Made by a program: the position numbers and the translations under genes
Source of the DNA: an uncultured Bacilli bacterium
Lineage (GTDB): Bacteria; Bacillota_I; Bacilli_A; RF39; UBA660
Reading direction: 5' to 3'
Assembly: GCA_947632325.1 (NCBI GenBank)
Contig: CANROU010000005.1
Span: 2,135-66,134, forward strand
DNA length: 64,000 bases
The notes under the pieces: generated by a model
Database searches by the model: none
Told to the model about the DNA's origin: nothing
Seen by the model: only the letters and a program-made list of their open reading frames with translations
Shown: in pieces, positions 15,405 through 30,373 of the stretch
Layout: each line of letters begins with the position of its first letter
Numbering within the stretch: the first letter of the stretch is position 1

Positions 15405-16484
15405 TTAATCTTGTAAATGGAAAAACTTTAAGATACGATGTAACCAATTTTCCTTAGTTTTATTTATAGATACATATATAGGAATAGTTTTTAGATTTTG
15501 ATCATTTAAAGATACCGTCACCACTCCAACTTGATCATTATTCTTATAATTTTTTAATTCTTCAATTTGTAATAAAACTTTGACCTTAGATGCTTCACTT
15601 TCTGTTAAAGGATAAGCAAAAGATTCTTTAACATATACTTTATCCGTATAAAAATTTTGATCAATATAAAAATTATTTTTATCAATTATGTCATATTTTT
15701 GATAATTTTTAAAACCATATTCATAAAGATTAGTATGTGAATCATATTCATTAGCATCATTTAAGGTAACAGCTGTCAAATTAAGCGCATTTTTAGAAGC
15801 CGTCGTCACTAGAGTTCTCCCTGCACTTGGAGTATAACCTGTTTTACCACCGGTCGCATATTCATAACTATTTAATAATTTATTACGGTTGTACCATAGA
15901 TAAGTCTTACCATCACCTTTTACTACATATTTTTTAGTTTTAGTTATTTCCTTATATTCTTCTAAACTAGAAGCATAACTAGATAATTTAGCCATATCCA
16001 AAGCTGTTGAATAATTTTGAGTTACCTCATCTAAGCCATGACAGTTGTTAAATATCGTATTCGTCATTCCAATCTCTTTAGCTTTGTCATTCATCATTTT
16101 AACAAAATTTTCTTCACTTCCCCCAATATAAGTAGCAATAACCACAGCAGCATCATTGCCGCTTCTTAAAAGCAGGCCATACAATAGATCACGCAACGAC
16201 ATTTTTTCGTGTAATTCTAAATAAATATTAGAGCCATACATAGCTAATATTTCTTCACCAACAGTAACAATATCATCTAAATTTCCTTTCTCAATAGCGA
16301 TAGTCGCAGTCATTATCTTAGTTATGGACGCTATCAATCGCTTTTCATCAGGATTTTTTTGATATAATATTCTACCACTATCAATGTCCATTAATACTGC
16401 ACTACTTCCCGTAACGGTCACTGCCCGAACTTTTACAGGACAAAATATTAACAACATCAATATTACTAGCACAATTTTTTTCAT
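15405..16484 (-). CDS. dacA: D-alanyl-D-alanine carboxypeptidase (PBP5/DacA-type)
   Basis: Signal peptide and SITKIMT (SxxK), SGN, KTG motifs. Confidence 0.8.
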   Translation of the reverse strand: MKKIVLVILMLLIFCPVKVRAVTVTGSSAVLMDIDSGRILYQKNPDEKRLIASITKIMTATIAIEKGNLDDIVTVGEEILAMYGSNIYLELHEKMSLRDLLYGLLLRSGNDAAVVIATYIGGSEENFVKMMNDKAKEIGMTNTIFNNCHGLDEVTQNYSTALDMAKLSSYASSLEEYKEITKTKKYVVKGDGKTYLWYNRNKLLNSYEYATGGKTGYTPSAGRTLVTTASKNALNLTAVTLNDANEYDSHTNLYEYGFKNYQKYDIIDKNNFYIDQNFYTDKVYVKESFAYPLTESEASKVKVLLQIEELKNYKNNDQVGVVTVSLNDQNLKTIPIYVSINKTKENWLHRILKFFHLQD

Positions 16485-16541
16485 TTAATTCACCTAATCC
16501 ATCGTATGCTTTTAAAAATATTTAATGAAAAAAGAGTATGA

Positions 16542-17138
16542 TTACTCTTTTTTACTATTAGATGAAATAAAGTATTTTCTAATTAATTTCCAATAATGGA
16601 CAAGAACAAGTATCAGTGCCCAAAAAAGAAATAATATCATGCTTATTTGTAGAACAATAGTTAAATCAGCCGATTTATACATTTCTATGCGGGATGAAAT
16701 ATCTATTTTGTTCGTAATAACTAAAATCAAAAAAGTGCTGAATAAAAATTGGATTAAGCAAAAAAAGAGGAGATTAATTTTTTTTATTACAGTAGAAAAC
16801 TTATCTTGATATATTGTAAAAATAAAAACTAAATAAGAAAACAAAACGATTAAGACATAAATGGCGAAAGATGGAAAATATAAGTTCATAGCAAAAGCTG
16901 TAAATAAATAATCAAGACCCAATAAAATACTTTGATGATAACCCAAGATAGCAAACAACATTAAACTTAAAAATATGATTACTATAGCTGATTTAATAAT
17001 TTTGTTATCTCGTTTTATATTTAAAAAACTAAGTACAAACAATAATCCAAAAATGATAAACAAACCTAAATAAACTGGTGATGAACATAATAATTTAGCT
17101 AGTTTTATTAATTGTCCTAAAAACGAAGTTGGTACCAT
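16542..17138 (-). CDS. polytopic integral membrane protein, unknown function (sortase operon)
   Basis: 198 aa with 5-6 hydrophobic helices, between sortase and dacA. Confidence 0.5.
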   Translation of the reverse strand: MVPTSFLGQLIKLAKLLCSSPVYLGLFIIFGLLFVLSFLNIKRDNKIIKSAIVIIFLSLMLFAILGYHQSILLGLDYLFTAFAMNLYFPSFAIYVLIVLFSYLVFIFTIYQDKFSTVIKKINLLFFCLIQFLFSTFLILVITNKIDISSRIEMYKSADLTIVLQISMILFLFWALILVLVHYWKLIRKYFISSNSKKE

Positions 17139-17147
17139 AATTACCTC

Positions 17148-17858
17148 CTAATTAATTGGAATTTGACTTTCTAATTCCAAAATATAAACGGTTTGTTTTG
17201 TATCATCTTGATATGTACAAGTTATTAAAGTCATAGTAGTCTTATCATAATTTCTTCTTAAAGCAATAGTTCCTGTCTTCTCTTCATAATAAATATTTAC
17301 TAAACGATATTGATAACGAATATTATTATATTCTACATATGCCACATCTCCTACTTCTAATTGATAAAGATTACGAAAGAAAGAAATAGCCGCTGTGCCA
17401 GAGTGCGCAACTAAAATGAAATTACCTTTATCAACATCAGGATAAGTAGAACTAGGTAAAGTTGTTACAGCATAATTGATATTATTATAACGAGAATCTT
17501 TTTGAACAAAACCCCTTTTAAAATTTATTTTAGGAATTTCTAACGTTCCAACATAAGGAATATTAATTGGTTCATCATCTTTGGATAATTCTCCTGTTGT
17601 TTCTTCTTCTAAATTTTCAACATCAGGACTATTGTTTATTTTACTATCGTTTTTATGATTTAATGATGCTAGCTGTAAATTCATTGTTTCAAATACATCA
17701 ATTTTCTTTTGTTGCAAATATGAATAAGAGAATAAGACAACGCCAATAACAACAAGGAAAGAGCCAATTACAATGAATTGTCCCTTATTGTTTTTATCAT
17801 TACGCTTTAGCTTTTTTTGTATTGACATAAACGATTCCAACTCCTCCCGCAATGACAA
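17148..17858 (-). CDS. srt: sortase (transpeptidase)
   Basis: N-terminal TM anchor, catalytic LVAHSG histidine and TLITC cysteine motif. Overlaps the adhesin gene 3' end by 59 nt, so the true start may be internal. Confidence 0.8.
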   Translation of the reverse strand: MSLREELESFMSIQKKLKRNDKNNKGQFIVIGSFLVVIGVVLFSYSYLQQKKIDVFETMNLQLASLNHKNDSKINNSPDVENLEEETTGELSKDDEPINIPYVGTLEIPKINFKRGFVQKDSRYNNINYAVTTLPSSTYPDVDKGNFILVAHSGTAAISFFRNLYQLEVGDVAYVEYNNIRYQYRLVNIYYEEKTGTIALRRNYDKTTMTLITCTYQDDTKQTVYILELESQIPIN

Positions 17859-20181
17859 TAATACCTAAGATATATACTATAACTGGCGTATCTTTAGCTG
17901 TATCTGGAACAGGAATCGTTGGTACATTATAGAAAACAACTGGTTGAATATCGCCACTATCCAAAACTTCAAACGTTACTTCATTAGTATTTGGTGCATA
18001 ACCATCAGGCACAATAGTTTCAGTTAAAGTATACTTACCCTGTGGTAAACGCTCAATTAAGTGATCTTCATCAGTTGACACCCACTCATCAATAACATTT
18101 CCCTTACTATCCTTAAGTTGCAAAGTTGCCCCTGGTATTTCCTCTTCATTAGAAATATCACGTTTACTAATAGCTACTTTGGTAAAATCATTAGGAATCA
18201 TAATCGACATATCCGTACCTGTTATATCAAATGGTATCTCTTTATAGCTTATTTTATAACCATCTACAGCTTCTTGAGTAAGAATGTATGAACCATTAGA
18301 TAGATTAGAAATCTTATGAGCTACCCCTGAAGATGATGATGTCCACTTATCGATACTTTCATTAGTATTAGCTGTTTTTACTTCAAAATTAATACCTTCG
18401 ATACTAGTTTGTATAGTCACAGTGTTTCCAACGACATTAACACTAACATAATCAGAACTTAATACTACTTTTTGAACCTTTCCATCATTGCTAACTTGGA
18501 AGGTAATTGGATTATTATTTAATATATATCCACTAGGCGCTTCTACTTCTTGTAATGTATAAGTACCTACGGGGATCTTAGCAATCTTAGTTGGTTGTTT
18601 AGTAGTTACCACTCGATATTTTACCTGTCCAGAAGCATCTTTTATTTCTAAAGTAGCTCCCGCCACTAATTCACCTGTTGAAGCATCTACTTTACTAACT
18701 GTAATAGCTGTATATTCATTTTCTACAACAATTTCTTGCGTTGCTGTCTCAGCCGTTTCATTAACAGTAAATTTTTGTGGAGTGGTATTAATGATATATC
18801 CTTCCGGTGCTTGTGTTTCTTTAATTTGATATGTACTACCCTTTGCTAATCCATAAATATGATGACTAGAACCATTAGTAACCCACGTGTCAATAACCCT
18901 AGTACCTGTTTCATCTAAAACTTGCAAAGTTACACCACTTACATTATTACCATCTTTATCTTTTTTGATAACAGCTACATCTGTTGGTGTATTCTCTATT
19001 TCTATAGTAACTGTCTTATCACCAACTAAATCATCAGCTGTTACAGTAAAATCTTTATACGCCTGATTGCTTCTATAGCCAAGTGGTGCTTGTTCTTCTT
19101 TGATTCTATAATTACCCTGTCCAAGATCATCACGACAAACTTTAGTATTAGTTGATAAGAAACTAGCTCCTTTTGCCTCATCACAATTATCAGCAGTACA
19201 TAGATAGATTTTTAACTTAGCACCAGCTATATATTTACCAGTTTTAGAATCTTTTTTAGCAAAACAGATGCCTGTTGATGGTATACTTAGCGTTAAACTA
19301 GCTTCTTTTGATTCCTGCTTATTTTTAAATAAATATACTACACTCTGATAACCGTCAGCATAATACGTATTAGCACTACTATAATCAGCATAATTAGCTA
19401 CTACTTTAACATCGATAGTATAACCTACACCAGCATTAGCTACTGGATAACGTACTTTAAATTTATCACCATTGTTAAAAGTCTGTTTTCTACTACCACC
19501 TTCATCAACGATTTCTCCTGCTTGGGAAGCATTAGAATCTAAACTAACTTGTATACTACTAACATCACTACTAGTTGTAACAGTGATTAAATTAGATTCG
19601 AAATAATCACCATTTTTACTCATTTCCATATTGTTACCATCAATAGTCAAATTAACATAAGGAGTTGCAGGTGCTCCAGAACTAGCCGTTTTAGCTTTAT
19701 TTACTAATTGTTTTACATAAGTACCATAGGTCGCATGATTATATATCGCAGAACGTTCTTCTTCCGTAAAATTATTGCCCCCTTGTACTTCATCCATATA
19801 ACACCATACAGCAAGTTGCATTAAATATGGTCTTGCTTGACTATCAACAGCACTAAGTATTTGAGTATCAGTTAACATTGTAGCTAATTGATAAGCATAA
19901 GCTGTTCCTTCTTCAGCTGGATGATAGTACACCCACGGCACTGGTAAACTTAACTTCCTTTGTAAACAATAGACATTCTCCCCTGTTGTATCAATAATAA
20001 TTTGATCAAATTCTATACCGTTAACATAACTTTCTTGATGTTTAAGTTCTTTTACTTGAAAACCACCATCAACAGCCAAAGAAGTAGAATTAAAACCAAT
20101 AAGTACTACCGAAGTTAATATAACAGCAATCAATAATACATTTACTATAAAAGTTCTATTCTTTTGTAATGCATTCTTCAC
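17800..20181 (-). CDS. cell-wall-anchored adhesin: N-terminal thioester domain (TED) plus 4 Cna-B/prealbumin-like stalk domains plus C-terminal sorting signal
   Basis: Signal peptide. YCLQ (thioester Cys) and MQLAVW (thioester Gln) motifs. Repeats GAKLKIY, GVTLQV, GATLEIKD, GATLQLKD. C-terminal VPDTA-hydrophobic-KKAKA. GTG start with RBS AGAGGTGAG. Confidence 0.75.
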   Translation of the reverse strand: MKNALQKNRTFIVNVLLIAVILTSVVLIGFNSTSLAVDGGFQVKELKHQESYVNGIEFDQIIIDTTGENVYCLQRKLSLPVPWVYYHPAEEGTAYAYQLATMLTDTQILSAVDSQARPYLMQLAVWCYMDEVQGGNNFTEEERSAIYNHATYGTYVKQLVNKAKTASSGAPATPYVNLTIDGNNMEMSKNGDYFESNLITVTTSSDVSSIQVSLDSNASQAGEIVDEGGSRKQTFNNGDKFKVRYPVANAGVGYTIDVKVVANYADYSSANTYYADGYQSVVYLFKNKQESKEASLTLSIPSTGICFAKKDSKTGKYIAGAKLKIYLCTADNCDEAKGASFLSTNTKVCRDDLGQGNYRIKEEQAPLGYRSNQAYKDFTVTADDLVGDKTVTIEIENTPTDVAVIKKDKDGNNVSGVTLQVLDETGTRVIDTWVTNGSSHHIYGLAKGSTYQIKETQAPEGYIINTTPQKFTVNETAETATQEIVVENEYTAITVSKVDASTGELVAGATLEIKDASGQVKYRVVTTKQPTKIAKIPVGTYTLQEVEAPSGYILNNNPITFQVSNDGKVQKVVLSSDYVSVNVVGNTVTIQTSIEGINFEVKTANTNESIDKWTSSSSGVAHKISNLSNGSYILTQEAVDGYKISYKEIPFDITGTDMSIMIPNDFTKVAISKRDISNEEEIPGATLQLKDSKGNVIDEWVSTDEDHLIERLPQGKYTLTETIVPDGYAPNTNEVTFEVLDSGDIQPVVFYNVPTIPVPDTAKDTPVIVYILGIIVIAGGVGIVYVNTKKAKA

Positions 20182-20210
20182 CTAAACTCACCTCTTTATT
20201 ATCTATCTTT

Positions 20211-20239
20211 ATTATAAACTCTTTTTGCATTTCTTTCAA
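20211..20239 (-). promoter_or_regulatory. sigma-A promoter TTGAAA-N17-TATAAT for the adhesin-sortase operon
   Basis: Minus strand reads TTGAAAgaaatgcaaaaagagttTATAAT. Confidence 0.45.
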
Positions 20240-20257
20240 TAAATTTTACAAATTAAT

Positions 20258-20287
20258 GTAAACAAAAAAATGCTGTTAAGCATTTTA
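20258..20287 (-). terminator. terminator of the lipoprotein gene
   Basis: Stem AAAUGCU(UAAC)AGCAUUU followed by U7. Confidence 0.6.
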
Positions 20288-20947
20288 ATATTCATAAAGT
20301 CCATGTATTTTTAAACGATCTATTTCAGATATATCATCTAATACCCACTTTTTATCTTTTTTGGTAAGCGTAAATGTTAGGGTATATTTTACTTTATCTT
20401 TTACATCTTTTAACTTTGATATTTTATAATCCATAAACTTTTCATTATCAATACTATCATCGTCAGTTGTTTTTTTATCAGTATCACTATCTTTTGTTGT
20501 TTCTTTATCAGTATCATCATCTTGTCCTACAATACCATCATCAGCTTCATAATTACCCTTATCACCATCTAAGGCCTCAGTTAGATCTTTTAAAAACTCA
20601 TCTTTATGTTCTTCTAAGTAGGATTGTGCATCTTTCATACTGCTACTATAATCAAAAACCTCAATTTCTACATCAACAGTAGCTGTGTCACCATTGACGG
20701 TCTCATCCTTAATTTTATATGATAGATTTTGATATTGTTTTTTCATTAAATCCCGATAATCTTCTTTTTGCTTATCAGTCATAACCCCTTCATCTTCAAT
20801 AATATCATCTAATTGTTTCAACACTTCACTATCCATAGTTTGATACTTTCCTAAAAACTCTTCGACTCTTTTTGTTGGGGTATTCATCATGTCAGCACAT
20901 CCTGTAAACAATAGAAAAACACTTATCGCTAATATTATTTTTTTCAT
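20285..20947 (-). CDS. acidic lipoprotein, unknown function
   Basis: Lipobox LFTGC and a D/E/T-rich low-complexity region. Confidence 0.6.
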   Translation of the reverse strand: MKKIILAISVFLLFTGCADMMNTPTKRVEEFLGKYQTMDSEVLKQLDDIIEDEGVMTDKQKEDYRDLMKKQYQNLSYKIKDETVNGDTATVDVEIEVFDYSSSMKDAQSYLEEHKDEFLKDLTEALDGDKGNYEADDGIVGQDDDTDKETTKDSDTDKKTTDDDSIDNEKFMDYKISKLKDVKDKVKYTLTFTLTKKDKKWVLDDISEIDRLKIHGLYEY

Positions 20948-25980: not shown

Positions 25981-26224
25981 TAAAAAAAACAGTAACTCAT
26001 CCCCTTAGGGACGAATTACTGTAATAATCCGCGGTACCACCCACATTATTATGTTACCATAATCACTCACGAAATAACGGCTTCGTTACCGGCTTAGTCT
26101 AATCTCCCACGGATTTCTTTAAGCACTCCGAAGTGTTTTTCAAAATAACCTTTTTATTGGATTCCACCATTTCCAACTCTCTATCAAAAAGTATTATTTA
26201 TACTCCTCTTCATCCACGTTTTTC
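25981..26224 (-). promoter_or_regulatory. T-box riboswitch leader of gatCAB-aspS, with candidate specifier AAC (Asn)
   Basis: Minus strand carries the T-box consensus AAUAAUGUGGGUGGUACCGCGG (26029-26050) and an intrinsic terminator ACAGUAA...UUACUGU plus U9 (25981-26022). Stem I has AGAGA and a specifier loop GAAA-AAC-A-CUUCGG that aligns with glyQS GAA-GGC-A-CUUCG. Confidence 0.85.
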
Positions 26225-26231
26225 AGTTAAG

Positions 26232-27701: not shown

Positions 27702-27778
27702 GGTGACCTGTATGGGATTTGAACCCACGAATACCACCTTGAGAGGGTGGCGTGTTAAACCGCTTCACCAACAGGCCA
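27702..27778 (-). tRNA. tRNA-Glu, anticodon CUC
   Basis: Minus strand GGCCTGTTGGTGAAGCGGTTTAACACGCCACCCTCTCAAGGTGGTATTCGTGGGTTCAAATCCCATACAGGTCACCA. Cloverleaf with anticodon loop CUCUCAA. About 80% identical to B. subtilis tRNA-Glu. The 3' CCA is encoded. Confidence 0.8.
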
Positions 27779-29554: not shown

Positions 29555-29629
29555 TGGTTGCCTCGGTTAGATTCGAACTAACGCGTCGTGCGGTCAGAGC
29601 GCACTGCCTTACCACTTGGCTACGAGGCA
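29555..29629 (-). tRNA. tRNA-Gln, anticodon CUG
   Basis: Minus strand TGCCTCGTAGCCAAGTGGTAAGGCAGTGCGCTCTGACCGCAC...GTTCGAATC...CGAGGCAACCA. U1:A72, Gln-type D-loop, anticodon loop CUCUGAC. Confidence 0.8.
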
Positions 29630-30296: not shown

Positions 30297-30373
30297 TGGT
30301 AGCGATGGGGGGGATCGAACCCTCGACCTCTCGGGTATGAACCGAACGCTCTAGCCAGCTGAGCTACATCGCT
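30297..30373 (-). tRNA. tRNA with CAU anticodon (elongator Met or Ile2-lysidine; not initiator)
   Basis: Minus strand AGCGATGTAGCTCAGCTGGCTAGAGCGTTCGGTTCATACCCGAGAGGTCGAGGGTTCGATCCCCCCCATCGCTACCA. The anticodon stem lacks the 3 G-C pairs expected of an initiator. Confidence 0.8.

What the first reader, a model, noticed from the sequence alone, without database searches (positions are those of the whole stretch)
16542..20239. Sortase operon encoding a thioester-domain (TED) adhesin with a non-canonical sorting signal
The 793-aa surface protein has the TED motifs [Y]C[L]Q (Cys) and MQLAVW (Gln of the TQxA(I/V)W class) near the N-terminus. Four Cna-B-like repeats follow (GAKLKIY, GVTLQV, GATLEIKD, GATLQLKD). 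The C-terminal signal is VPDTA rather than LPXTG. Downstream are a TLITC sortase and a polytopic membrane protein. TED adhesins bind host targets covalently, so this is a candidate host- or mucus-attachment factor in a gut anaerobe. The sortase probably has LPxTA-type specificity.
Basis: partly seen in the sequence, partly recalled or inferred. Interest (0 to 1): 0.55.

Follow-up and report, generated by a model that had tools for sequence, protein, structure and literature searches.

The report
Thioester adhesin with an arginine-less sortase
This is a real three-gene operon for a surface adhesin of the known Class II thioester type; its dedicated sortase belongs to a large, apparently undescribed group that has glutamine where other sortases have their catalytic arginine, reads VPxT-type instead of LPXTG signals, and always sits next to an unknown membrane protein.

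Summary
Three co-oriented minus-strand genes (adhesin 17800-20181, sortase 17148-17828/17858, membrane protein 16542-17138) follow a strong promoter match, and all quoted motifs are present.

The adhesin is a Class II thioester-domain (TIE) protein. Its family profile hits B. anthracis BaTIE (6FWV) at 2.8e-28, and an AlphaFold model matches only 6FWV and 6FWY. The bond-forming Gln is Gln279 (YQSVV), not Gln122 of MQLAVW, which belongs to the auxiliary TQxxΦW motif. There are five SpaA-type domains, not four Cna-B repeats, and four keep the isopeptide triad.

VPDTA belongs to a family-wide signal class: Val at position 1 in 95 of 109 relatives, and no Leu in 50 metagenomic tails.

The sortase reaches no class-specific NCBIfam cutoff, so it is not an LPxTA class D enzyme. 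His and Cys are invariant, but the canonical β8 Arg is replaced by an invariant Gln-Thr (120 of 120 homologs). In every locus with enough downstream flank (56 metagenomic, plus L001, L002, L004-L010), this sortase is adjacent to a ~200-aa polytopic protein with no Pfam or PDB relative.

Overall this is a new variant of a known kind. Catalysis, the thioester bond and the adhesin's target are all untested.

The parts
20211..20239 (-). Promoter-like site TTGAAA-17 nt-TATAAT upstream of the adhesin gene. An RBS (AAAGAGGTGA) lies about 7 nt before the GTG start.
   Evidence: 11 of 12 match, the best in 16300-20400. The total number of promoter-like sites in the region is not above shuffles. Sequence read.
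17800..20181 (-). Adhesin gene, 793 aa: signal peptide, Class II thioester domain, five SpaA-type domains, C-terminal sorting signal.
   Evidence: identical to NCBI protein P0001.
20074..20181 (-). Predicted Sec signal peptide, residues 1-36. Cleavage after SLA36 is inferred.
   Evidence: Sequence read directly: basic N-terminus, hydrophobic core, small-x-small site. Inference; no predictor was run.
19279..20073 (-). Class II thioester domain (TED), residues 37-301: head lobe plus inserted β-sandwich.
   Evidence: 131 relatives by exhaustive HMMER. 38 of 41 relatives hit Pfam TED. Family profile against PDB: 6FWV 2.8e-28, 6FWY 5.9e-16. AF2 model pLDDT 88.8. Foldseek: 6FWV 6.9e-15, 6FWY 2.8e-13, and no other fold at E <= 0.001.
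19966..19968 (-). Cys72 in YCLQ ([YFL]CΦζ motif): predicted thioester Cys.
   Evidence: Column is Cys in 123 of 133 sequences. Aligns with BaTIE Cys71 (PMC6194298).
19804..19821 (-). MQLAVW (residues 121-126): auxiliary TQxxΦW motif with T replaced by M. Gln122 and Trp126 are predicted to flank the bond, not to form it.
   Evidence: Columns: T 124, Q 120, A 130, W 123 of 133. Role of the motif from PMC6194298. Lies in helix 82-98 of the model fragment.
19336..19350 (-). YQSVV (residues 278-282): ΦQζΦΦ motif. Gln279 (19345-19347) is the predicted thioester Gln.
   Evidence: Q in 39 of 41 aligned sequences; the other two are gaps. Aligns with BaTIE Gln266, chain index 235 (PMC6194298).
18997..19278 (-). 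SpaA domain D1 (residues 302-395). Candidate isopeptide triad Lys309/Glu362/Asn397.
   Evidence: Pfam SpaA, 5 stretches, 224 bits. Triad positions from alignment to CnaB2; the CnaB2 sequence was recalled from memory, so this is inference.
18715..18996 (-). SpaA domain D2 (residues 396-489). Candidate triad Lys406/Glu455/Asn488.
18442..18714 (-). SpaA domain D3 (residues 490-580). Candidate triad Lys497/Glu545/Asp577.
18184..18441 (-). Gly sits where the isopeptide Lys should be, so it probably has no isopeptide bond.
   Evidence: fifth SpaA stretch; weak Cna_B hit at 589-655. Alignment.
17917..18183 (-). SpaA domain D5 (residues 667-755). Candidate triad Lys673/Glu721/Asn752. It hits the SpyCatcher/CnaB2 structures.
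   Evidence: 2x5p, 3.2e-11, query residues 658-745..
17803..17910 (-). Cell-wall sorting signal: VPDTA (17896-17910), a 4-residue spacer, a 20-residue hydrophobic segment and an NTKKAKA tail. Only about 2 residues separate D5 from the motif.
   Evidence: Family-wide VPxT(G/A/S/D) pattern.
17148..17858 (-). Sortase (longest ORF 236 aa; annotated form P0190 is 226 aa, 17148-17828): N-terminal TM helix, acidic disordered linker, catalytic β-barrel. In P0190 numbering: His142 (17403-17405), Cys204 in TLITC (17217-17219), Gln212-Thr213 at the start of β8 (17190-17195) in place of the catalytic Arg, and family-specific Arg192 (17253-17255).
   Evidence: Pfam Sortase 57.5 bits and TIGR01076 52.6 bits pass their cutoffs; class models fail. 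Invariance in 120 of 120 homologs. BaSrtA KRYV aligns with KQTV. Model β7 198-204 and β8 211-224. Sortase fold confirmed.
16542..17138 (-). 198-aa polytopic membrane protein (about 5-6 hydrophobic segments, conserved YFP motif). Uncharacterised family, always adjacent to this sortase type.
   Evidence: No Pfam, NCBIfam or PDB relative. Alignment and hydropathy. Adjacent in the reference loci L001, L002, L004-L010 and in 56 of 56 metagenomic sortase ORFs with enough flank.

Best explanation
The locus is a self-contained surface-display operon, transcribed from its own promoter.

The first gene encodes a TIE-type (thioester, isopeptide, ester) adhesin. After Sec export, its N-terminal Class II thioester domain is expected to form an internal Cys72-Gln279 thioester autocatalytically. 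Gln122 and Trp126 of the degenerate TQxxΦW motif (MQLAVW) would pack against the bond. Four of the five SpaA-type stalk domains are expected to lock themselves with Lys-Asn/Asp isopeptide bonds. The thioester is the warhead: it should react with an amine on a still unknown target to give a covalent amide link.

The precursor is held in the membrane by its C-terminal hydrophobic segment and KKAKA tail. The second gene encodes a dedicated membrane-anchored sortase that is inferred to cleave VPDT|A through Cys204, assisted by His142, and to pass the adhesin to a peptidoglycan precursor. This sortase belongs to a large clade in which the canonical β8 arginine is replaced by an invariant Gln-Thr. 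The Gln amide, perhaps helped by the clade-specific Arg192 in the β6/β7 loop, is proposed to take over the hydrogen-bonding role of the Arg. The clade's substrates carry (V/T/A/S/I)-P-x-T-(G/S/A/...) signals instead of LPXTG.

The third gene encodes a ~200-aa polytopic membrane protein without recognisable catalytic residues. It is invariably next to this sortase type and is inferred to be an accessory or scaffold factor for the sorting reaction.

Shown: gene structure, domain identity, residue mapping, family-wide conservation and synteny. Inferred: bond formation, cleavage site, wall attachment, the roles of Gln212, Arg192 and the membrane protein, and the target.
For: TED identity:
- 131 relatives of residues 36-301, with consensus YC(L/I/V)(D/E/N) and DYYITQxA(I/V)WWY.
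- 38 of 41 relatives hit Pfam TED.
- Family profile against PDB: 6FWV 2.8e-28, 6FWY 5.9e-16, then the Class I TEDs 5DCQ, 4C0Z and 5A0L.
- AF2 model pLDDT 88.8. Foldseek finds only 6FWV and 6FWY at E <= 0.001.
- Cys72 and Gln279 map onto BaTIE Cys71 and Gln266.

Stalk: five SpaA stretches, 224 bits; SpyCatcher/CnaB2 and BaTIE hits; triad positions kept in D1, D2, D3 and D5.

Sorting signal: tripartite C-terminus. Position 1 is V in 95 of 109 relatives and VPDTA is the commonest motif. 0 of 50 metagenomic tails next to this sortase type have Leu at position 1.

Sortase:
- Pfam and TIGR01076 generic sortase models pass. The model has a canonical sortase fold, with 128 PDB chains at E <= 0.001.
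- His142, Cys204, Gln212 and Thr213 are invariant in 120 of 120 homologs, and no column after the Cys has Arg in more than 7 of 120.
- SaSrtA Arg197 aligns with Gln212. BaSrtA KRYV aligns with KQTV.
- Gln212 is the second residue of β8 in the model, which is where the review places Arg197 (PMC11231552).

Cassette: adhesin, Gln-sortase and membrane protein are together in L001, L002, L004-L010. In metagenomes the membrane homolog is adjacent in 56 of 56 sortase ORFs with enough flank, and a TED ORF lies directly upstream in 50 of 57 Gln-type sortases.

Internal control: L026 has a second TED-like protein (YPNTE) paired with a separate Arg-type sortase.
Against: - The query alone is below Pfam's TED threshold (13.9 bits against 22), and its TQxxΦW motif has Met for Thr.
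- No coordinates were available, so the Cys72-Gln279 distance and the slipknot topology could not be measured. TM-scores to 6FWV and 6FWY are only 0.48-0.57.
- The catalytic Arg is regarded as part of the sortase triad, so a Gln enzyme might be slow, might need a partner, or might do different chemistry. No activity data exist.
- HMMER alignments to solved sortases mostly stop at the Cys. The Arg-to-Gln equivalence therefore rests on one phmmer alignment, one MAFFT alignment to a sequence recalled from memory, and the model's strand positions.
- One of the two patterns used for the metagenome scan contained the QT(V/I)YI motif, which biases that sample towards Gln-type enzymes.
- The closest ortholog (L001) has VPQAG, with Ala where the scissile Thr should be, and a few tails lack the Pro. 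The recognition rule is therefore loose.
- No target is known.
Confidence: 0.72

Rival explanations
1. One reading: the thioester forms between Cys72 and Gln122 of MQLAVW, and the sortase is a class D, LPxTA-type enzyme.
For: Gln122 sits in a near-invariant column, and in solved TEDs the equivalent residue lies next to the bond (PMC6194298). The best PDB sequence hit of the sortase is C. perfringens SrtD, 4D70. Class D enzymes recognise LPNTA or LPDTA, and the motif here ends in TA.
Against: PMC6194298 states that the TQxxΦW Gln and Trp are not essential for bond formation, and that the bond-forming Gln lies on strand Q of the β-sandwich hairpin. The BaTIE mapping gives Gln279. The class D NCBIfam models score 36 and 48 bits against cutoffs of 165 and 140, in all 53 family members tested. 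Position 5 of the signal varies across the family: G 29, A 27, S 20, D 16. Foldseek shows no preference for class D.
Confidence: 0.04
2. The operon builds a pilus. The sortase is a polymerase (class C-like) and the TED protein is a tip pilin, like Cpa, or like RrgC with its VPDTG signal.
For: VPDTG is the signal of the pneumococcal pilin RrgC, which is handled by SrtC-3. The class C NCBIfam model gives the highest, though sub-threshold, score (60 bits). L008 and L010 have two substrates per sortase.
Against: No YPKN-type pilin motif occurs in any of the 11 substrates examined, and no DP(F/W/Y) lid motif was seen in the sortases checked. There is no shaft-pilin gene and no second sortase in the 64-kb window. 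All the substrates are TED-type proteins, not shaft pilins. The class C cutoff of 160 bits is not approached.
Confidence: 0.07
3. The sortase is catalytically impaired or repurposed. The adhesin stays membrane-anchored by its C-terminal helix, as proposed for the sortase-independent TIEpLS20, and is not linked to peptidoglycan.
For: The canonical catalytic Arg is absent. TIEpLS20 functions without a sortase (PMC8092201). The spacer between the last stalk domain and the motif is only a few residues, so there is no wall-spanning segment. L001 has Ala at the Thr position.
Against: His142 and Cys204 are invariant in 120 of 120 homologs, together with many other core residues, which argues for a working active site. 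The x-P-x-T-x motif directly before the TM segment is conserved across divergent substrates, which argues for selection on processing. Strict co-location of sortase and substrate holds across loci whose sortases are about 40-75% identical.
Confidence: 0.12
4. The adhesin's target is not the host. It mediates bacterium-to-bacterium contact (mating, aggregation, biofilm), as the Class II TED protein TIEpLS20 does in conjugation.
For: TIEpLS20 is a Class II TED adhesin needed for conjugation (PMC8092201). One relative (P0029) lies in a ParA/ParB/helicase context. No target of any Class II TED is established, and BaTIE does not bind collagen.
Against: Here the operon sits among housekeeping genes (polC, pseudouridine synthase, PBP5-type carboxypeptidase, aspS, gatB, gatA). 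Its synteny is conserved between genomes, with no conjugation genes nearby. Relatives are common in human-gut metagenomes, which fits a host or mucus target equally well.
Confidence: 0.25

Closest known systems
BaTIE (B. anthracis BA5258, PDB 6FWV) and EfmTIE86 (6FWY): Class II TED 'TIE' proteins (Miller et al. 2018, PMC6194298)
   Same: The architecture is the same: signal peptide, Class II TED (head lobe plus β-sandwich insert), a run of CnaB/SpaA isopeptide domains and a sortase signal. The Cys and bond-forming Gln align (Cys72/Gln279 with BaTIE Cys71/Gln266). They are the best profile and fold matches.
   Different: Only 16-20% identity in the structural alignment. The query is sub-threshold for Pfam TED. 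Its TQxxΦW motif reads MQLAVW. It has five stalk domains, one without the Lys. The signal is VPDTA with almost no spacer, whereas BaTIE has LPATG after a 38-residue disordered region. It has a dedicated adjacent sortase.
Class D sortases (B. anthracis SrtC with LPNTA; B. subtilis YhcS with LPDTA; C. perfringens SrtD, PDB 4D70)
   Same: Best PDB sequence hit is 4D70 at 1.9e-9. N-terminal membrane anchor, no lid, a TLxTC motif, and a signal ending in T-A.
   Different: Fails the class D NCBIfam cutoffs. The β8 Arg is replaced by Gln-Thr. Substrates have Val or a small residue, not Leu, at position 1, and a variable position 5. There is an obligatory neighbouring membrane protein.
Pneumococcal RrgC with SrtC-3 (VPDTG signal; class C sortase)
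   Same: A Val-Pro-Asp-Thr sorting motif handled by a dedicated sortase encoded next to its substrate.
   Different: SrtC-3 has the canonical His144/Cys206/Arg215 triad and a lid, and it builds pili. Here there is no lid, no pilin motif and no shaft pilin, and Gln replaces Arg.
TIEpLS20 (B. subtilis plasmid pLS20 gene 34; PMC8092201)
   Same: A Class II TED plus CnaB-type stalk. The Cys was shown to be essential, and the thioester pair Cys68-Gln256 was modelled on BaTIE in the same way as here.
   Different: TIEpLS20 is plasmid-borne, serves conjugation, lacks a sorting signal and is sortase-independent. The window protein is chromosomal and has a sorting signal and its own sortase.
Papain-family cysteine proteases (oxyanion hole formed by a Gln side chain; from general knowledge, not tested here)
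   Same: A Cys/His nucleophile pair assisted by a Gln amide is an established solution for stabilising the tetrahedral intermediate. This makes a His-Cys-Gln sortase chemically plausible.
   Different: The fold and ancestry are unrelated. The analogy is mechanistic only, and no geometry was measured here.

Membership tests
Thioester domain (TED), Class II, of TIE proteins | [YFL]-C-Φ-ζ motif carrying the bond-forming Cys | tested here: met
   YCLQ 71-74. The column is Cys in 123 of 133 sequences. Aligns with BaTIE Cys71.
Thioester domain (TED), Class II, of TIE proteins | Bond-forming Gln in a Φ-Q-ζ-Φ-Φ motif on strand Q | tested here: met
   YQSVV 278-282. Q in 39 of 41 aligned sequences. Aligns with BaTIE Gln266 (PMC6194298).
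Thioester domain (TED), Class II, of TIE proteins | TQxxΦW motif on helix α2 | tested here: inconclusive
   MQLAVW: Gln, Ala, Val and Trp are kept, but Thr is replaced by Met (Thr in 124 of 133 sequences). [quoted passage not shown]
Thioester domain (TED), Class II, of TIE proteins | Class II fold: head lobe plus a roughly 75-residue β-sandwich insert | tested here: met
   The AF2 model has a helical/β head followed by β strands at 141-264. Foldseek matches only 6FWV and 6FWY at E <= 0.001. The profile hit covers BaTIE chain residues 17-254.
Thioester domain (TED), Class II, of TIE proteins | Pfam PF08341 gathering score | tested here: not met
   Query alone: 13.9 bits against 22, and no hit in the full-length scan. 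38 of 41 relatives do pass at E <= 0.001.
Thioester domain (TED), Class II, of TIE proteins | Slipknot topology, and Cys SG to Gln CD within bonding distance | not testable with these tools
   The tools return no model coordinates (one search shows only FASTA files).
Thioester domain (TED), Class II, of TIE proteins | A real thioester bond (17-Da mass loss; reactivity with amines) | not testable with these tools
   Needs protein expression and mass spectrometry.
SpaA / CnaB-type isopeptide domains | Pfam SpaA (PF17802) match | tested here: met
   224.3 bits, five stretches. PDB hits to BaTIE, SpyCatcher/CnaB2 and SpaA-like domains.
SpaA / CnaB-type isopeptide domains | Lys, catalytic Glu, and Asn/Asp triad | tested here: inconclusive
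   Alignment places K/E/N(D) in D1, D2, D3 and D5, while D4 has Gly for Lys. The reference CnaB2 sequence was recalled from memory. Bond formation is untested.
   14.8 bits against a cutoff of 22.3. The domains belong to the related SpaA family.
Sortase superfamily | Sortase fold and generic family models | tested here: met
   PF04203: 57.5 bits against 26.6. TIGR01076: 52.6 against 39.35. Foldseek: 128 PDB chains at E <= 0.001, and the top 50 are all sortases.
Sortase superfamily | Catalytic His and the TLxTC Cys | tested here: met
   His142 and Cys204 are invariant in 120 of 120 homologs and 53 of 53.
Sortase superfamily | Catalytic Arg at the start of β8 | tested here: not met
   Gln212-Thr213 are invariant in 120 of 120, and no conserved Arg follows the Cys. 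BaSrtA KRYV aligns with KQTV. β8 spans 211-224 in the model. The canonical triad is described in the review.
Class D sortase (LPxTA-type) | NCBIfam NF033746 / NF058671 cutoffs | tested here: not met
   35.9 bits against 165, and 48.1 against 140. The same holds for all 53 family members.
Class C (pilus) sortase | NCBIfam NF033745 cutoff; lid motif; pilin substrates | tested here: not met
   59.8 bits against 160. No DP(F/W/Y) lid motif in the sortases checked, and no YPKN-type motif in 11 substrates.
LPXTG-type cell-wall sorting signal | Tripartite layout: pentapeptide, hydrophobic segment, basic tail | tested here: met
   VPDTA, KDTP, 20 hydrophobic residues, NTKKAKA.
LPXTG-type cell-wall sorting signal | L-P-x-T-G consensus and a Gram_pos_anchor / TIGR01167 hit | tested here: not met
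   Val at position 1 and Ala at position 5. No anchor model was reported by Pfam or NCBIfam.
LPXTG-type cell-wall sorting signal | Cleavage after Thr and linkage to peptidoglycan | not testable with these tools
   Needs biochemistry.

The most novel reading that the evidence does not exclude
The sortase is the founding example of an undescribed sortase class with three distinguishing traits. It has a His-Cys-Gln active site in place of His-Cys-Arg. It is specific for (V/T/A/S/I)-P-x-T-(G/S/A) signals on thioester-domain adhesins. It is strictly paired with a dedicated ~200-aa polytopic membrane protein. The class is common in uncultured low-GC Bacilli ('Tenericutes'-labelled MAGs) of gut communities. 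The Gln amide, possibly with the relocated Arg192, would then do the job assigned to the 'essential' Arg in classes A-F, and the membrane partner would be a new component of the sorting machinery.
Probability: 0.5. Interest if true: 0.75.

Novelty: new variant of a known kind. Interest (0 to 1): 0.6.

Why it matters
The adhesin itself extends the Class II TED family into uncultured gut Bacilli. It also shows that motif spotting picks the wrong Gln, because the warhead pair is Cys72-Gln279.

The more consequential point concerns the sortase. The His-Cys-Arg triad is treated as a constant of sortase enzymology and of inhibitor and protein-engineering work. Here a large, conserved clade has an invariant Gln-Thr at the Arg position. 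One search found 1,611 sortase-family hits at E <= 1e-5, and all 120 that could be inspected are Gln-type. One search confirmed 429 metagenomic relatives.

This makes a long-standing mechanistic question directly testable with natural sequences: does the Arg act through its charge or only through hydrogen bonds? If active, these enzymes would offer an orthogonal recognition motif (VPxT-G/S/A) for sortase-mediated ligation. The invariably linked membrane protein would be a new player in Gram-positive surface display.

For annotation, VPxT-type signals and Gln-type sortases are currently missed by LPXTG and class-specific models, so sortase substrates in these gut lineages are under-counted.

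Tried and rejected
- **Word-indexed homolog search with the N-terminal 266 aa:** nothing at E <= 0.001, not even the protein itself. The exhaustive HMMER search was needed.
- **The look-up of encoding contigs for P0001:** no record.
- **Organism:** known only through relatives titled 'uncultured Tenericutes bacterium' or 'Bacilli bacterium'.
- **Literature:** no paper holds 'sortase' with 'VPXTG'. Searches for an Arg-less or Gln sortase returned only irrelevant papers. 'sortase + Arg197 + citrulline' returned nothing, so my recollection that a neutral Arg analogue supports SrtA activity is uncited.
- **Membrane protein:** no Pfam, NCBIfam or PDB relative, for it or for five homologs.
- **Profile or phmmer alignments of the sortase to PDB sortases, meant to read the β8 position:** most stop at the Cys. 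Only the B. anthracis SrtA alignment runs through. I first mislabelled 2KW8 as SrtC; Foldseek's description shows it is SrtA.
- **P0029 (VPKTG) neighbourhood:** no sortase; plasmid-like context.
- **Model coordinates:** not exposed, so no Cys-Gln or Cys-Gln212 distances could be measured.
- **First two regexes for sorting motifs in metagenomic tails:** they mis-anchored on the basic tail or on upstream prolines and were replaced by TM-anchored extraction.
- **Pilus and class D interpretations:** considered and rejected (see rival explanations).

Full report
**1. Observation**

The region holds three co-oriented minus-strand ORFs:
- a 793-aa protein (17800..20181);
- a sortase (17148..17858 as the longest ORF; the deposited form P0190 is 226 aa and starts at 17828);
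- a 198-aa hydrophobic protein (16542..17138).

The sortase start overlaps the adhesin's 3' end, and the membrane-protein gene starts 9 nt after the sortase stop. The best promoter-like site in 16300-20400 is TTGAAA-17-TATAAT at 20239..20211 on the minus strand, just upstream of a good RBS and the GTG start. No terminator-like site was found inside the region.

The window averages about 29% G+C. The flanking genes are housekeeping: polC, a pseudouridine synthase, a PBP5-type D-Ala-D-Ala carboxypeptidase, aspS, gatB and gatA. The 793-aa protein is identical to an unnamed NCBI protein on a 77-kb contig.

**2. The adhesin's N-terminal domain**

Pfam on the whole protein reports five SpaA stretches (224 bits) and no TED. 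The N-terminal 266 aa alone gives only a sub-threshold TED hit (13.9 bits against 22) over the MQLAVW region. A word-indexed search found nothing.

An exhaustive HMMER search of 1.84 billion representatives found 131 relatives at E <= 0.001. In their alignment the query's Cys72 column is Cys in 123 of 133 sequences. The MQLAVW column set reads (T124)(Q120)x(A130)(I/V)(W123), giving the consensus Y-C-(L/I/V)-(D/E/N) and D-Y-Y-I-T-Q-x-A-(I/V)-W-W-Y.

Of 41 aligned domains, 38 hit Pfam TED on their own. A profile of the alignment hits PDB 6FWV at 2.8e-28 and 6FWY at 5.9e-16, followed by the Class I TEDs 5DCQ, 4C0Z and 5A0L. An AlphaFold2 model built on this alignment is confident (pLDDT 88.8, pTM 0.79). 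Foldseek finds only the chains of 6FWV (6.9e-15) and 6FWY (2.8e-13) at E <= 0.001.

6FWV is the B. anthracis TIE protein and 6FWY is the E. faecium TIE86 thioester domain. Both are founding structures of the Class II TED fold, in which a β-sandwich is inserted into the TED head and forms a slipknot (PMC6194298).

**3. Which Gln forms the bond**

The same paper states the following:
- The bond-forming residues lie in a [YFL]CΦζ motif and a weak ΦQζΦΦ motif.
- The third motif, TQxxΦW, sits next to the bond on helix α2, but its Gln and Trp are not essential for bond formation.
- In Class II the bond-forming Gln comes from strand Q of the β-hairpin that returns from the sandwich.
- BaTIE's bond is Cys71-Gln266.

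In the profile alignment, BaTIE chain index 40 (Cys71) aligns with the query's Cys72. Chain index 235 (Gln266) aligns with the near-invariant Gln at fragment position 244, which is Gln279 in 'GYQSVV' (Q in 39 of 41 sequences, the other two being gaps).

The predicted thioester is therefore Cys72-Gln279. Gln122 and Trp126 are the auxiliary pair, in a motif whose Thr has become Met. I could not measure distances because the tools expose no coordinates.

**4. The stalk**

The five SpaA-type domains are residues 302-395, 396-489, 490-580, 581-666 and 667-755. They hit BaTIE, SpyCatcher/CnaB2 and SpaA-like structures.

Aligned to CnaB2, domains D1, D2, D3 and D5 keep Lys, Glu and Asn/Asp at the isopeptide positions: K309/E362/N397, K406/E455/N488, K497/E545/D577 and K673/E721/N752. 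This is alignment-based inference, and the CnaB2 reference sequence came from memory. Pfam's Cna_B model itself is sub-threshold.

**5. The sorting signal**

The C-terminus is VPDTA-KDTP, then 20 hydrophobic residues, then NTKKAKA. Only about two residues separate the last stalk domain from the motif, so there is no wall-spanning spacer of the kind BaTIE has.

Among the TED relatives, 109 of 133 have an xPxTx motif in the last 50 residues. Position 1 is Val in 95 and Leu in 3. Position 5 is G 29, A 27, S 20, D 16. VPDTA is the single commonest form, with 11 cases.

In 50 distinct metagenomic TED tails in loci carrying the same sortase type, position 1 is V (30) or T, A, S, I or G, and never L. 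The core is (D/N/S/K)-T-(G/S/A/K), and about six tails lack the Pro.

A Val-first motif has precedent: VPDTG is the signal of the pneumococcal pilin RrgC. I found no paper describing a VPxT signal class.

**6. The sortase**

Generic models recognise it (Pfam 57.5 bits; TIGR01076 52.6 bits). No class model comes near its cutoff: class C 59.8 against 160, SrtD-LPxTATN 48.1 against 140, class E 40.5 against 160, class D 35.9 against 165. The same holds for all 53 relatives tested.

The best PDB sequence hit is C. perfringens SrtD, 4D70, at 1.9e-9. The AF2 model has a TM helix, a disordered acidic linker and a confident β-barrel. Foldseek matches class A, C, D, E and F sortases about equally (5.6e-10 to 1.7e-8). 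No class C lid motif was seen in the sortases checked.

The unexpected feature is the active site. In the 120 closest cluster representatives (43-100% identity in the searches), four positions are invariant: His142, Cys204, Gln212 and Thr213. No column C-terminal to the Cys holds Arg in more than 7 of 120 sequences.

Three lines of evidence place Gln212 at the canonical Arg position:
- MAFFT aligns S. aureus SrtA Arg197 with Gln212 (the SrtA sequence was recalled from memory, and its Cys184-Arg197 spacing agrees with the review).
- phmmer aligns B. anthracis SrtA (2KW8) '...ITLITCVSVKDNSKRYV' with '...MTLITCTY-QDDTKQTV'.
- In the model, β7 is 198-204 and β8 is 211-224. Gln212 therefore sits at the start of β8, where the review places Arg197.

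Other HMMER alignments to solved sortases end at the Cys, which itself shows how divergent β8 is. A clade-specific Arg/Lys (Arg192; 115 R and 5 K of 120) lies in the β6/β7 loop, where C. perfringens SrtD has Gln.

**7. The cassette**

Adhesin, Gln-type sortase and a homolog of the 198-aa membrane protein occur together in these loci:

| Locus | Sortase identity to query | Substrate signal | Note |
|---|---|---|---|
| L001 | 70% | VPQAG | |
| L002 | 47% | VPDTS | TED without stalk |
| L004/L005, L006/L007 | about 48-49% | VPSTG, VPDTN | |
| L008 | 46% | VPRTG and VPKTG | two substrates; membrane protein upstream |
| L009 | not measured | VPKTS | |
| L010 | not measured | two VPDTL substrates | |
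| L003 | 39% | VPGTS | contig ends at the sortase |

A metagenome scan confirmed 429 relatives and returned 80 loci, several from human-gut assemblies. With HMMs built from the reference sets:
- 78 of 81 sortase ORFs read Q-T or Q-S at +8/+9 after the Cys.
- 55 of 56 sortase ORFs with at least 650 nt of downstream sequence have the membrane-protein homolog immediately downstream. The exception, L019, has it upstream.
- 50 of 57 Gln-type sortases with enough upstream sequence have a TED ORF ending just upstream.

One caveat applies: one of the two search patterns contained the QT(V/I)YI motif, so the Gln frequency in that sample is biased. The neighbour statistics are not.

The three non-Gln sortases are second enzymes in the same contigs. 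In L026 a further TED-like protein ending in YPNTE plus a TM segment is followed by a small sortase with 'LITCTNHPQIRLLVF', a canonical Arg-type β8. So Arg-type sortases exist in these lineages and are paired with a different signal.

All 11 substrates inspected have an N-terminal [Y/F/M]-C TED-type motif and no YPKN-type pilin motif. The 64-kb window has no other sortase and no other protein with a sorting signal.

**8. The membrane protein**

It has about 5-6 hydrophobic segments. It has few invariant residues (a Ser, a Tyr, an F-P pair, Thr, Lys, Asn, Trp) and no invariant His, Asp, Glu or Cys. It has no Pfam, NCBIfam or PDB relative, and neither do its homologs. In L008, L009 and L026 it carries a 100-190-residue acidic C-terminal extension. 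I read it as an accessory or scaffold factor and not as an enzyme, but that is inference from co-location alone.

**9. Mechanism, and how sure**

Shown:
- operon structure;
- Class II TED identity;
- mapping of Cys72 and Gln279;
- SpaA stalk;
- tripartite VPDTA signal belonging to a family-wide class;
- a bona fide sortase fold with invariant His and Cys and an invariant Gln-Thr in place of Arg;
- strict three-gene linkage.

Inferred:
- autocatalytic thioester and isopeptide formation;
- cleavage after Thr761 and transfer to peptidoglycan;
- Gln212 (possibly with Arg192) substituting for the Arg as a hydrogen-bond donor. This is plausible by analogy with the Gln oxyanion hole of papain-type proteases, which is general knowledge and was not tested here;
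- an accessory role for the membrane protein;
- a covalent amine target.

The nature of the target (host, mucus, food particle or another bacterium) is open. The only functionally studied Class II TED adhesin outside pathogens serves conjugation (PMC8092201), and BaTIE's reported collagen binding was not reproduced.

**10. Novelty and verdict**

The adhesin is a new, divergent member of a known family. The operon as a whole is a new variant of a known kind. It is a sortase-substrate pair that departs from the textbook system in three linked ways: a Gln for Arg in the active site, Val or a small residue for Leu in the signal with a relaxed position 5, and an obligatory extra membrane component. 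It is widespread in uncultured gut Bacilli.

I found no description of this in the searchable literature, although that library is incomplete. I score interest at 0.60. The TED adhesin alone would be routine. The arginine-less sortase clade is what a specialist would find surprising, and it is directly testable.

Noticed in passing
L026:6224-9072 (also L013 and L041): Directly after the TED / Gln-sortase / membrane-protein cassette lies a second TED-like 776-aa protein ending in YPNTE plus a TM segment and basic tail. It is followed by a small (173-aa) sortase with a canonical Arg-type β8 (LITCTNHPQIRLLVF). This suggests one dedicated sortase per adhesin, with different signals, in one genome.
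   Followed up: partly
L008:5068-5988, L009:2455-3633, L026:5181-6161: In some genomes the sortase-linked membrane protein carries a 100-190-residue acidic, low-complexity C-terminal extension that is absent from the window's 198-aa version. In L008 the gene lies upstream of the sortase instead of downstream.
   Followed up: partly
L001:4642-7050: The closest ortholog of the adhesin (its sortase is 70% identical) has VPQAG, with Ala at the position of the scissile Thr. About six metagenomic tails lack the Pro (GTDDTG, GGGDTG, GTEDTG, PVDDTG). The recognition rule of this sortase clade therefore seems unusually loose.
   Followed up: no
P0011 / L009:207-1769 and L003:5407-7035: Some TED relatives have lost the Gln of the TQxxΦW motif (TGLAVW, TAFAIY) while keeping the Cys and the ΦQζΦΦ Gln. 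This fits the published view that the TQ Gln is dispensable for the thioester.
   Followed up: no
window 17896-17925: Only about 2 residues separate the last SpaA domain (…VVFYNVPT) from the VPDTA motif, and many relatives are equally short (…MYNxPxxEVPxT). There is no wall-spanning spacer like the 38-residue disordered region of BaTIE, so the lower stalk domains would sit within or at the wall.
   Followed up: no
window 15405-16484 (-); L001:10086-11219; L002:9254-10402; L004:7303-9428; L006/L007: A PBP5-type D-Ala-D-Ala carboxypeptidase gene lies just downstream of the cassette in the window and in several relatives (L001, L002, L004-L007). A VanY-type carboxypeptidase accompanies it in L004-L007, and an unannotated 297-aa ORF occupies the corresponding position in L002. 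This may be conserved gene order among related genomes or a functional link to peptidoglycan-precursor supply.
   Followed up: no
window 20285-20947 (-); L001:4002-4559: A 220-aa predicted lipoprotein (LFFTGC lipobox, acidic C-terminal half, no family above threshold) lies immediately upstream of the adhesin promoter. It is conserved in the closest relative L001 but not in more distant cassettes.
   Followed up: no
window 26004-26225 (-): A T-box leader (118 bits, above the gathering score) lies upstream, in the minus-strand sense, of the gatA-gatB-aspS gene run.
   Followed up: no
window 27704-27777, 29558-29629, 30300-30373 (-): Three tRNA genes on the minus strand. Their anticodons were not determined.
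   Followed up: no
L011 (P0029 locus): A 1166-aa SpaA-repeat protein ending in EVPKTG lies between ParA/ParB genes and a 2063-aa SNF2/helicase protein, with no sortase nearby. It is a VPxTG-type surface protein carried on a plasmid- or ICE-like element.
   Followed up: no
window 17148-17858 compared with P0190: The longest ORF of the sortase starts at a TTG (17858). The deposited protein starts at the ATG 10 codons downstream (17828). Either way the sortase start overlaps the adhesin's 3' end, by 29 or 59 nt, which suggests translational coupling.
   Followed up: partly
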